NCBI GenBank assembly: GCA_963813055.1
Contig: CAWEXM010000006.1
Location: forward strand, 364,433-428,432
DNA length: 64,000 bases
Reading direction: 5' to 3'
Source of the DNA: an uncultured Solirubrobacteraceae bacterium
Lineage (GTDB): Bacteria > Actinomycetota > Thermoleophilia > Solirubrobacterales > Solirubrobacteraceae
In this document: in pieces, positions 50,015 to 50,746 of the stretch
How positions within the stretch are numbered: the first letter of the stretch is position 1
Layout of the letters: each line of letters begins with the position of its first letter
Position numbers and translations under genes: made by a program
Notes under the pieces: generated by a model
The model's input: the letters and a program-made list of their open reading frames with translations, nothing else
Databases searched by the model: none
What the model was told of the DNA's origin: nothing

Positions 50015-50042
50015 TAAAGGTCACCTTCAGGAGAGTCGATGC
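50015..50042 (+). promoter_or_regulatory. sigma-28/WhiG-type promoter for pilin 1
   Basis: TAAAG-N15-GTCGATGC. Confidence 0.7.
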
Positions 50043-50055
50043 ACCGGCTGACAAG

Positions 50056-50162
50056 GCCAGTGCCGAGGTGCCAAGGCAAGCACTCGAAAGGTGCGCAGCA
50101 AAGCCGGCGGCTCTCGAATCAGGGGGACGCATCGCCGCTTGAGGCGATTACCGAGGGCTGGC
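50056..50162 (+). ncRNA. c-di-GMP-I (GEMM)-like riboswitch, variant
   Basis: GGCAA-GCACUC-GAAA-GGUGC-GCAGC-AAAGCC...AUUACCGA parallels the GEMM core GGCAAA-stem-GAAA-stem-GACGCAAAGCC...UUACCGA; lies between the promoter and the AGGAGG RBS. Confidence 0.5.
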
Positions 50163-50192
50163 GCCCATGTAAGAGATCCTAGGAGGATCACC

Positions 50193-50645
50193 ATGCTGTA
50201 TCGACTGCGCCAGCGCTCGACCGATGAGGGTGGTTTTACCCTCATCGAGCTCCTGGTCGTCATCCTGATCATCGGCATCTTGGCCGCGATCGCGATTCCG
50301 TCGTTCCTGAACCAGAAAGGCAAGGCGTACGACGCTTCGGCGAAGGAGCTTGCACGTACGGCTCAGACGGCCGCGGAGACCATCTCCACGGACAACAACG
50401 GGGAATACACGAAAGTGACCCAGGCCGAATTGAAAGCATACGAGGCGACGATTCAGATCGCTGCCGGTGGAAACAACGCATACATCAGCGCTGCCACGGG
50501 CAACGGGAACTCGTACACGGTGACCGCGACAGCCGCGAGCACTGGTGACAAATTCTCTGTCACCAGGAACAGCGAAGGCGTGGTCAGCCGCTCGTGCACT
50601 TCAGAAAGCAAAGGCTGCAACGGAGCCAACAGCGGTAGCTGGTAA
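50193..50645 (+). CDS. pilA: type IV major pilin 1
   Basis: Class III signal GG|FTLIELLVVILIIGILAAIAIP; C-terminal Cys pair; AGGAGG RBS. Confidence 0.93.
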   Translation: MLYRLRQRSTDEGGFTLIELLVVILIIGILAAIAIPSFLNQKGKAYDASAKELARTAQTAAETISTDNNGEYTKVTQAELKAYEATIQIAAGGNNAYISAATGNGNSYTVTATAASTGDKFSVTRNSEGVVSRSCTSESKGCNGANSGSW

Positions 50646-50689
50646 TCAATTCTGAGCTCTGCATCGGGCAGAGGCTCAGTTCGCTCACT

Positions 50690-50724
50690 GAAAAGAGGAC
50701 GGCCCCACGGGCCGTCCTCTTTTC
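50690..50724. terminator. intrinsic terminator (bidirectional type) after pilin 1
   Basis: GAAAAGAGGACGGCCC-CAC-GGGCCGTCCTCTTTTC perfect hairpin. Confidence 0.9.
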
Positions 50725-50746
50725 GTTGTATGTCCAGATGAGTTCT

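What the first reader, a model, noticed from the sequence alone, without database searches (positions are those of the whole stretch)
50056..50162. Variant cyclic-dinucleotide riboswitch in the leader of pilin 1
Seen: the GEMM-like P2 (GGCAA, GCAC/GUGC stem, GAAA tetraloop, GCAAAGCC) and 3' UUACCGA are present, with G at the position equivalent to G20, which favours c-di-GMP over cGAMP. However, the C44-equivalent is A, P3 is irregular and an extra AUCGCC/GGCGAU hairpin can form. Inference: a divergent c-di-GMP-I subtype, possibly with altered specificity, adding RNA-level control to a sigma factor that may itself be c-di-GMP gated.
Basis: partly seen in the sequence, partly recalled or inferred. 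Interest (0 to 1): 0.62.

Follow-up and report, generated by a model that had tools for sequence, protein, structure and literature searches.

The report
Remodelled c-di-GMP riboswitch relic, pilin leader
The leader of the main type IV pilin mRNA in this soil actinobacterium (Solirubrobacteraceae) is a conserved folded RNA that descends from a c-di-GMP riboswitch still intact in sister genera. Here it has lost the parts that hold c-di-GMP and looks frozen in the old ligand-free shape.

Summary
Rfam alone gives only 15.3 bits for c-di-GMP-I (cut-off 35, E=1.2).

A covariance model of the leader finds it in front of the same pilin gene in 144 of 151 sampled genomes of the genus. It also finds it in 24 of 51 sampled genera of the family. 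In all 20 sister-genus loci tested, the homologous leader holds a canonical c-di-GMP-I aptamer (45-67 bits), nested in the same outer helices.

So the window's RNA is a derived form of that riboswitch. It keeps the G20 and A47 equivalents and the GCAAAGCC junction. Four things are lost:
- the C92 segment and the aptamer's own P1 3' strand, which now form the 5' arm of hairpin P4;
- the local P3 base;
- the C44-G83 pair (C at C44 in 0 of 74 leaders);
- a conserved GNRA loop (9 of 74, against 28 of 28 in sister genera).

Covariation supports a four-way junction that equals the ancestral ligand-free fold (94.9% of cells paired, 22 of 33 pairs with double changes).

It therefore fails membership of c-di-GMP-I. 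Most likely it no longer senses c-di-GMP in the classical way. Whether it binds another ligand is open, because the junction letters stay nearly invariant. This scan had not noted it before on other DNA.

The parts
50015..50042 (+). WhiG/sigma-28-like promoter: TAAA (50015-18), 16-nt spacer, GTCGATGC (50035-42). The inferred transcription start is near 50050.
   Evidence: The block TAAAG-N-G(C/T)CGATGC is conserved in the genus alignment. The consensus TAAA / GCCGATAA and its link to pilus genes come from PMC8325347. The start site is inferred, not mapped.
50056..50061 (+). P0 5' strand GCCAGU. It pairs with 50157-62.
   Evidence: GCCAG and CUGGC are 100% invariant in 74 leaders. The sixth pair covaries in sister genera: A-U, U-G, C-G, U-A.
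50063..50069 (+). CC (pairs with GG 50155-56), then GA facing GA 50153-54, then P1 5' strand GGU (50067-69).
   Evidence: All three P1 pairs covary: UA 39 / CG 12 / UG 7; GC / GU / AU.
50070..50079 (+). Junction GCCAAG with G50075 (the G20 equivalent), then GC 50076-77 and AA.
   Evidence: G50075 is kept in 97%, G50076 in 100% and A50078 in 97% of 74 leaders. It aligns with the AAGGCAAA of the canonical aptamers.
50080..50094 (+). P2 hairpin GCACU / GGUGC with loop CGAAA.
   Evidence: All five pairs show compensatory changes. The loop is not conserved in the genus: it is GNRA in 9 of 74.
50095..50106 (+). GCA (A50097 is the C44 equivalent), GC 50098-99, then A50100 (the A47 equivalent) and AAGCCG. 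This is the former J2/3 plus the former P3-base 5' strand.
   Evidence: Positions 50099-50106 are 95-100% invariant. C at the C44 place occurs in 0 of 74 leaders here and 28 of 28 in sister genera.
50107..50130 (+). P3: GCG-G-CUCUC / GGGGG-A-CGC. The terminal loop is variable and takes 20-40 nt insertions in relatives.
   Evidence: Seven of eight pairs have changes on both sides.
50131..50148 (+). P4 hairpin AUCGCC / GGCGAU. Its 5' arm is homologous to the ancestral P3 3' end, C92 and the start of the P1 3' strand.
   Evidence: It covaries in the genus: CG 54 / UA 15; UA 41 / CG 18 / UG 14. It also covaries in sister genera as UGCC/GGCA and CGCC/GGCG. The register comes from the model alignments.
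50150..50162 (+). Distal strand: ACC (P1 3'), GA, GG, GCUGGC (P0 3').
   Evidence: The same strand is present in sister genera downstream of the canonical aptamer.
50163..50174 (+). Conserved GCCC followed by a variable A-rich linker.
   Evidence: G50163 is kept in 94% and C50164-65 in 86-87%. No covarying partner was found.
50175..50195 (+). Shine-Dalgarno hairpin GAUCC / GGAUC with GGAGG (50182-86) half in the loop, then the start codon ATG 50193-95 of the pilin gene (50193-50645).
   Evidence: The hairpin is 96% paired and covaries in the genus and in sister genera (AUUCC/GGAAU, UCCC/GGGA).

Best explanation
The roughly 145-nt leader of the major type IV pilin mRNA is a structured RNA under purifying selection. 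It descends from a c-di-GMP-I riboswitch.

In sister genera of the Solirubrobacteraceae the same leader still holds a canonical aptamer. There the 5' strand GGU(G) can pair in two ways. It pairs with the aptamer's own 3' strand CACC in the ligand-bound fold. Otherwise it pairs with a distal ACC, while hairpin P4 swallows C92 and the start of the P1 3' strand; this is the ligand-free fold.

In the window's genus only the second fold survives. The result is P0, P1 (distal), P2, P3 and P4 around a four-way junction, followed by a small Shine-Dalgarno hairpin.

The classical c-di-GMP pocket cannot form. There is no C92, no aptamer-closing P1, no local P3 base, no C44-G83 pair and no conserved GNRA docking.

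My committed reading is that the RNA no longer switches on c-di-GMP. It acts as a constitutively folded leader, giving a stable 5' domain and a fixed, unmasked start region. c-di-GMP control of the pilin then rests on the WhiG-type promoter.

What is shown: descent, fold, loss of the defining features, and conservation.

What is inferred:
- that the ancestral switch turns translation off by masking the start region (seen in three sister genera);
- that the derived form is insensitive to c-di-GMP (about 0.7 likely);
- that it binds no ligand at all (about 0.5 likely).
For: Descent:
- Model R1 finds the leader in 144 of 151 genus genomes and in 43 of 151 family genomes, spread over 24 of 51 genera. 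It finds none in the other families of the order.
- 61 of 62 hits sit directly before the orthologous pilin.
- All 20 sister loci tested carry RF01051/RF03167 above cut-off, 45-67 bits, in register with the window's leader.

Fold:
- On 74 genus leaders 94.9% of cells are paired, 22 of 33 pairs have double changes, and 0 of 500 shuffles reach this. Slid controls give 38-47% paired.
- The same frame covaries in 28 sister leaders.

Loss of defining features:
- Rfam gives 15.3 bits for the window. There is no hit at E<=10 in 20 other genus leaders.
- C at the C44 place is found in 0 of 74 leaders here against 28 of 28 in sister genera. A GNRA loop is found in 9 of 74 against 28 of 28.
- The junction between P4 and P1 is variable, with no conserved C.
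- G83C and C44G/G83C abolish c-di-GMP binding in the Vc2 riboswitch (PMC11705072).

Switch logic in sister genera:
- The distal fold is favoured by a median of about 7 kcal/mol without ligand.
- In genera g21, g27 and g76 the strand released on aptamer closure is complementary to the SD-AUG region, at -14 to -18 kcal/mol and z -3 to -4.5. In the window's genus there is no such match, z about 0.

The lineage still uses c-di-GMP and its riboswitch. The genome holds three canonical aptamers, one of them before a pilin paralogue with 52% identity. It also has about 15-20 GGDEF-domain matches.
Against: The former pocket letters stay 95-100% invariant across 74 leaders, although they are unpaired in the supported fold. 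These are G50075-A50078 and C50099-G50106. A mere stabilising leader would hardly need that. It points to a pocket, a protein site or a transient pairing.

P2 and P3 are kept by compensatory changes, although the Shine-Dalgarno hairpin does not need them.

Alternative pairings are possible in most leaders and cannot be excluded as transient states, because the letters are invariant. Examples are AGCC with the distal GGCU, GGUGCC with GGCGCC, and CGGCG with CGCCG.

No binding or expression data exist. The transcription start is not mapped. The off-switch logic is seen in only some sister genera and rests on nearest-neighbour energies.
Confidence: 0.55

Rival explanations
1. It is still a ligand-sensing riboswitch, a new class built on the c-di-GMP-I scaffold. 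The four-way junction forms a new pocket that reuses the retained half-site (the G20 equivalent plus the A47-A49 stack). It senses something other than c-di-GMP, for example a guanine nucleotide such as pGpG, (p)ppGpp or GTP, or another dinucleotide.
For: The junction letters are nearly invariant in 74 leaders while loops and stems vary. All four helices are kept by covariation. The RNA is present genus-wide, in 57 of 58 high-quality genomes. There are precedents of riboswitch variants with changed specificity, such as the c-AMP-GMP variants of c-di-GMP-I (PMC7266159).
Against: The change is far larger than a pocket substitution, because the architecture itself differs. No conserved alternative structure or expression platform that could transmit binding was found. 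The Shine-Dalgarno hairpin is separated from the domain by a variable linker, and the domain is closed by P0. No candidate ligand follows from gene context, since only pilins are downstream.
Confidence: 0.22
2. It still binds c-di-GMP through a rewired GEMM-like fold. In this fold the distal GGCU (50156-59) replaces the lost P3-base partner of AGCC, and GGCGCC (50160-65) closes P1 with GGUGCC. This is the divergent c-di-GMP-I subtype the first reader proposed.
For: In the window these pairings are possible: AGCC/GGCU and GGUGCC/GGCGCC. Across the genus they are paired in 87-95% of cells. G20 and A47 equivalents are conserved. The distal GGCU is more conserved in this genus than in sister genera.
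Against: There is no covariation. Paired cells are 90.0% against 90.1% in shuffles, and the covariation score is below that of the shuffles. Changes in the 5' strand are not compensated, with 16-19 of 74 unpaired at two pairs. The same GGU covaries with the distal ACC instead. The rewired fold excludes P0, whose letters are invariant. There would be G or nothing at the C92 place, and C44-G83 is absent, which abolishes binding in Vc2. Rfam gives 15.3 bits.
Confidence: 0.13
3. The conserved junction is the binding site of a protein or a small RNA that took over control of pilin translation or mRNA stability after the aptamer decayed.
For: There are invariant single-stranded letters with no RNA partner found within the leader. 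There is an AGGA in the loop of the Shine-Dalgarno hairpin.
Against: No candidate factor was identified, and nothing in the window points to one. It is not testable with these tools.
Confidence: 0.08
4. It is a chance resemblance to GEMM-I in a GC-rich untranslated region with no function.
For: The Rfam E-value is 1.2. The fold z-score is -1.1.
Against: It is homologous to canonical aptamers in register. It is conserved genus-wide. Covariation is strong.
Confidence: 0.02

Closest known systems
c-di-GMP-I riboswitch (GEMM-I, Rfam RF01051; clan CL00126 with RF03167 and RF03168)
   Same: It is the evolutionary parent. It has the same 5' half: AAG-GC, an internal loop, the P2 hairpin, and GC-AAAGCC with the G20 and A47 equivalents. 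It sits in a 5' UTR of a surface-appendage gene. Orthologous leaders in sister genera are true members at 45-67 bits.
   Different: It has a four-way instead of a three-way junction. P1 is closed by a distal strand. The C92 segment and the P1 3' strand are turned into hairpin P4. The local P3-base partner is lost. The C44-G83 pair is lost. The GNRA loop is not conserved. It scores 15.3 bits against a cut-off of 35.
c-AMP-GMP riboswitch (GEMM-Ib) and other specificity variants of known riboswitch classes
   Same: It is a lineage-specific variant of GEMM-I with changed pocket positions.
   Different: Those variants keep the architecture and change one or two pocket letters (G20 to A). Here G20 is kept and half of the pocket and the junction topology are changed.
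'Ghost aptamer' of singlet glycine riboswitches (from my own knowledge; the term occurs in PMC12422784, which I did not read)
   Same: It is a degenerate remnant of a former aptamer kept as a structural element.
   Different: There the remnant supports a neighbouring working aptamer. Here the only aptamer of the leader is the one remodelled.
(RsiG)2-(c-di-GMP)2-WhiG control of type IV pilus genes in Rubrobacter (PMC8325347)
   Same: The phylum-level neighbourhood and the target (pil genes) are the same. A TAAA / GCCGATAA-type promoter stands in front of this pilin, and a WhiG-family sigma gene is in the genome.
   Different: That is a protein switch acting on transcription, not an RNA element. 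RsiG was not looked for here.

Membership tests
c-di-GMP-I (RF01051) | Covariance-model score at or above the curated cut-off (35 bits). | tested here: not met
   The window scores 15.3 bits, E=1.2, with the P3 half deleted. It gives no hit at gathering threshold. Twenty other genus leaders give no hit at E<=10. Sister-genus leaders reach 45-67 bits.
c-di-GMP-I (RF01051) | A three-helix junction in which P1 is closed by the strand that directly follows P3 and J3/1. | tested here: not met
   Covariation supports a four-way junction. GGU 50067-69 pairs with ACC 50150-52 beyond an extra hairpin P4.
c-di-GMP-I (RF01051) | G20, which contacts one guanine of the ligand. | tested here: met
   G50075 is present in 97% of 74 leaders.
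c-di-GMP-I (RF01051) | A47, which intercalates between the two guanines, within GCAAAGCC. | tested here: met
   A50100 is present in 98% of 74 leaders, and 50099-50105 are 95-100% invariant.
c-di-GMP-I (RF01051) | C92 in J3/1, which pairs with the second guanine. | tested here: not met
   The homologous C (in GCC 50134-36) is locked in the covarying P4 stem. The junction before P1 3' (50149) is variable: G 24, A 23, U 15, C 12.
c-di-GMP-I (RF01051) | The inter-helix C44-G83 Watson-Crick pair. | tested here: not met
   At the C44 place the count is A 42, G 30, U 2, C 0 of 74. Sister genera have C in 28 of 28. The pair is essential in Vc2 (PMC11705072).
c-di-GMP-I (RF01051) | A GNRA tetraloop on P2 docking on P3 (the common type). 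| tested here: not met
   The window can form GAAA, but only 9 of 74 genus leaders have a GNRA loop, against 28 of 28 in sister genera.
c-di-GMP-I (RF01051) | The P3 base helix AGCC/GGCU next to the junction. | tested here: not met
   The local 3' partner is replaced (CGCAUC at 50128-33). Pairing with the distal GGCU is possible but has no covariation and excludes P0.
c-di-GMP-I (RF01051) | Binds c-di-GMP and changes gene expression. | not testable with these tools
   This needs in-line probing or ITC, and reporters.
c-AMP-GMP riboswitch (GEMM-Ib) | A at position 20 in an otherwise intact GEMM-I fold. | tested here: not met
   There is G at 50075, and the fold is not intact.
c-di-GMP-I-GGC (RF03167) | A score at or above 59 bits. 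From its Rfam consensus GCGAAG, read with Vc2 numbering from my own knowledge, the family has G at the A47 place. | tested here: not met
   There is no hit. A50100 is A.

The most novel reading that the evidence does not exclude
The four-way-junction leader is a new riboswitch class that evolved within one large soil genus from a c-di-GMP-I aptamer. It keeps one guanine-binding half-site (the G20 equivalent and the A47-A49 stack) and has rebuilt the other half. It would therefore sense a different signal, for instance pGpG, (p)ppGpp, GTP or another dinucleotide, to set pilin translation. This would be a caught-in-the-act example of a riboswitch changing both architecture and ligand.
Probability: 0.2. 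Interest if true: 0.85.

Novelty: new variant of a known kind. Interest (0 to 1): 0.6.

Why it matters
Riboswitch variants are usually found as pocket substitutions inside an unchanged fold. Here a whole genus (144 of 151 sampled genomes) carries a version in which the fold itself was rebuilt. The parent form survives at the same locus in sister genera, so ancestor and descendant can be compared letter by letter.

If the RNA is insensitive to ligand, it shows how a riboswitch is retired: the ligand-free fold is fixed and the competing strand is lost. It would also show that pilin control by c-di-GMP shifted to the WhiG-type promoter alone.

If it binds a new ligand, it is a new riboswitch class with a known origin.

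The intact sister-genus leaders also add a pilin-controlling c-di-GMP-I riboswitch with an unusually long outer helix, and probably with off-switch logic, in Thermoleophilia. My literature searches found no riboswitch described in this class.

Tried and rejected
1. Canonical membership. Rfam at gathering and at permissive thresholds gives 15.3 bits only.

2. Rejected by the in-register alignment with canonical sister leaders, and by covariation of ACC with GGU.

3. A rewired GEMM fold using the distal GGCU and GGCGCC. No covariation above shuffles.

4. The two-base GC/GC pairs that frame P2 in GEMM-I. One pair is invariant and the other is broken in 16 of 74 leaders, with no double change.

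5. An alternative P3 (CGGCG 50105-09 with CGCCG 50133-37). It is possible in most leaders, but the changes of G50107 are compensated at C50130 and not at C50135.

6. A search for hidden tertiary or pseudoknot pairs by mutual information. Only the known helices rank high. There is a weak G50098/C50108 signal, G-C to A-U in 7 leaders from about two clades.

7. A 5' hairpin GGCU/AGCC upstream of P0. It probably lies at or before the transcription start and is only moderately conserved.

8. A leader peptide (ORF 50039-50182). Rejected because loop insertions of arbitrary length and RNA-type covariation fit an RNA, not a coding frame.

9. An intrinsic terminator in the leader. None was found.

10. 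Literature searches for a described riboswitch in Solirubrobacterales or Thermoleophilia pilin leaders. Nothing was found.

11. The 2017 paper that defined the c-di-GMP-I-GGC/UAU variants is not in the searchable library.

Full report
**What is there**

The stretch 50056-50162 lies in the 5' untranslated region of a type IV pilin gene. The gene runs from ATG 50193 to 50645, and its product has the N-terminus MLYRLRQR...GFTLIELLVV. It is followed by a second pilin, a prepilin peptidase and pilM.

- GGCAA at 50075-79;
- the GCACU/GGUGC stem with a CGAAA loop at 50080-94;
- GCAAAGCC at 50098-50105;
- G50075 at the G20 place and A50097 at the C44 place;
- the AUCGCC/GGCGAU hairpin at 50131-48;
- UUACCGA at 50148-54.

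Taken alone the likeness is weak. Rfam finds nothing at gathering threshold. With permissive filters c-di-GMP-I scores 15.3 bits (cut-off 35, E=1.2 on 301 bases) and aligns only the P2 half. The single-sequence fold energy is ordinary, z=-1.1.

**Relatives**

The genome is an 84%-complete assembly. The look-alike records are uncultured Solirubrobacteraceae/Solirubrobacterales MAGs. It does use the riboswitch class. Three canonical c-di-GMP-I aptamers (53-57 bits) lie elsewhere in it. One lies directly before a pilin paralogue that is 52% identical to the window's pilin. The genome also has about 15-20 GGDEF-domain matches.

The window's leader is single-copy in its genome but conserved in the genus. 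From 24 leaders I built a covariance model, R1. Its hits were as follows.

| Sample | Genomes with a hit |
|---|---|
| Window's genus | 144 of 151 (57 of 58 high-quality genomes) |
| Family | 43 of 151, in 24 of 51 genera |
| Other families of the order | none |

The genus tally includes one unpublished genome, G309. No sequence from it was used, and no claim depends on it.

Of 62 aligned hits, 61 sit immediately before the orthologous pilin. The remaining one is cut by a contig end.

**The key result**

In the sister genera the homologous leader contains a canonical c-di-GMP-I aptamer. All 20 loci tested score 45-67 bits for RF01051 or its clan mate RF03167. The aptamer lies in register with the window's GGCA...GCAAAGCC.

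It is nested in an outer frame that the window shares:
- the helix P0 (GCCAGN/NCUGGC);
- CC/GG and a GA/GA internal loop;
- a GGU that can pair with a distal ACC;
- a hairpin P4;
- a Shine-Dalgarno hairpin.

In 28 sister leaders this frame is supported by covariation. Cells are 92.4% paired, 17 of 33 pairs have double changes, and 0 of 500 shuffles reach this.

In these RNAs the same GGU(G) has two possible partners. One is the aptamer's own P1 3' strand, CACC. The other is the distal ACC. The 5' arm of P4 (UGCC, covarying to CGCC) consists of the end of P3, C92 and the first base of the P1 3' strand. The frame is therefore the ligand-free alternative to the aptamer fold.

Nearest-neighbour energies put the distal fold a median of about 7 kcal/mol below the aptamer-closed fold without ligand.

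In genera g21, g27 and g76 the strand set free when the aptamer closes is complementary to the SD-AUG region. The duplex energies are -14 to -18 kcal/mol, with z of -3 to -4.5 against shuffles. I infer that in those genera c-di-GMP turns pilin translation off.

This agrees in direction with the WhiG-RsiG-c-di-GMP switch that controls pilus genes in Rubrobacter, where c-di-GMP lets RsiG sequester WhiG (PMC8325347).

**What the window's genus has instead**

The analysis rests on 74 leaders of the genus (alignment A4).

Covariation supports a four-way junction:
- P0 (50056-61 / 50157-62);
- P1 (GGU 50067-69 / ACC 50150-52), in which all three pairs covary;
- P2 (50080-84 / 50090-94);
- P3 (50107-15 / 50122-30), with a variable tip;
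- P4 (50131-36 / 50143-48);
- the SD hairpin (50175-79 / 50185-89).

Overall 94.9% of cells are paired, 22 of 33 pairs have changes on both sides, and 0 of 500 shuffles reach this. With slid partners only 38-47% are paired.

Comparison with the sister aptamers shows what was lost:

| Feature | Sister genera | Window's genus |
|---|---|---|
| Segment after P3 | GGGCUGCCACC (P3 3' end, C92, P1 3' strand) | GCAUCGCCGC, now the 5' arm of a stable P4 |
| Local partner of AGCC | GGCU | gone |
| C at the C44 place | 28 of 28 | 0 of 74 (A 42, G 30, U 2) |
| GNRA loop on P2 | 28 of 28 | 9 of 74 |
| Junction before P1 3' strand | G/A then C92 | variable, no conserved C |

In the Vc2 riboswitch, G83C and C44G/G83C abolish measurable c-di-GMP binding (PMC11705072).

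Twenty further genus leaders give no c-di-GMP-I match at E<=10.

The RNA is therefore a descendant of the family, but it fails its defining features.

**Tests of ways to rescue a GEMM-like fold**

A rewired three-way junction was tested first. In it AGCC 50102-05 pairs with the distal GGCU 50156-59, and GGUGCC pairs with GGCGCC 50160-65. This is possible in the window but shows no covariation. Paired cells are 90.0% against 90.1% in shuffles, and changes in the 5' strand go uncompensated at 16-19 of 74 leaders. It also excludes P0.

An alternative P3 (50105-09 with 50133-37) is not supported either. Changes of G50107 are compensated at C50130, not at C50135.

A mutual-information scan found no further pairs beyond a weak 50098/50108 signal.

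**What remains unexplained**

The former pocket letters are as conserved as the Shine-Dalgarno sequence. G50075-A50078 and C50099-G50106 are 95-100% invariant in 74 leaders. In the supported fold they are unpaired.

This is the main argument that the RNA may still bind something: a ligand in a rebuilt pocket, or a protein. I cannot decide this from sequence.

**Mechanism, with odds**

- That the element descends from c-di-GMP-I and folds as the four-way junction is shown; I put it at about 0.9.
- That it no longer senses c-di-GMP in the classical way is inferred, at about 0.7.
- That it is a constitutively folded leader, locked in the ancestral ligand-free fold with the start region never masked, is my committed reading, at about 0.5. 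c-di-GMP control would then be left to the WhiG-like promoter. That promoter is TAAA at 50015-18 and GTCGATGC at 50035-42. It is conserved in the genus, and a WhiG-family sigma gene lies about 14 kb upstream of the window.
- The rivals are a new ligand (about 0.2), c-di-GMP through a rewired fold (about 0.13) and a protein or sRNA site (about 0.08).

**Comparison and novelty**

The closest known family is c-di-GMP-I (GEMM-I). The difference is one of architecture, not a pocket substitution as in the c-AMP-GMP variants.

No Rfam family matches the window's leader. I found no description of such a leader in Solirubrobacterales or Thermoleophilia.

I class it as a new variant of a known kind. It is of real interest to riboswitch specialists because parent and derivative coexist at orthologous loci.

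Noticed in passing
window 50015-50042: A WhiG/sigma-28-like promoter (TAAA, 16 nt, GTCGATGC) is conserved upstream of the leader across the genus. It places the transcription start a few bases before helix P0. A FliA/WhiG-family sigma gene (284.8 bits) lies at G000:C6:349711-350391, about 14 kb before the window.
   Followed up: partly
L003:1500-1574 (-), = G000:C4:799753-799827: A canonical c-di-GMP-I aptamer lies directly before a pilin paralogue (52% identical to the window's pilin). It has a simple leader: the aptamer, then about 12 nt, then GGAGGG and a TTG start. The genome thus keeps one classical riboswitch-controlled pilin next to the remodelled one.
   Followed up: partly
L001:1500-1577 (-) and L002:1502-1576 (+): Two more canonical c-di-GMP-I aptamers are in the genome. 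The one in L001 precedes a secreted protein with a signal peptide. The gene after the one in L002 was not resolved.
   Followed up: no
sister loci L052, L040, L054, L051, L059: In these canonical pilin riboswitches the strand GGCAUGG..., released when the aptamer closes, is complementary over 8-12 bp to the SD-AUG region. This suggests a c-di-GMP off switch acting on translation. Other sister genera lack this match.
   Followed up: partly
window 50055-50060 and 50102-50107: The hexamers AGCCAG (GGCCAG in the window) and AGCCGG are both invariant in the genus. Both can pair with CUGGC 50158-62. Sister genera have AGCCAC at the second site. The meaning is unknown.
   Followed up: partly
window 50098 and 50108: G-C changes to A-U together in 7 of 74 leaders (about two clades), although the two positions are not paired in the supported fold. 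This may be a tertiary contact or shared ancestry.
   Followed up: no
loci L013, L015, L036, L037, L017, L024 and others: Several genomes of the genus carry two tandem copies of leader plus pilin. The second copies are more diverged and in part closer to the canonical P3 (CGGUCC/GGACCG).
   Followed up: no
window 50689-50725: A strong terminator-like hairpin (17 pairs, then a T-rich tail) follows pilin 1. It is followed by another TAAAG...GCCGAT-type promoter before pilin 2, which has no structured leader of this kind.
   Followed up: no
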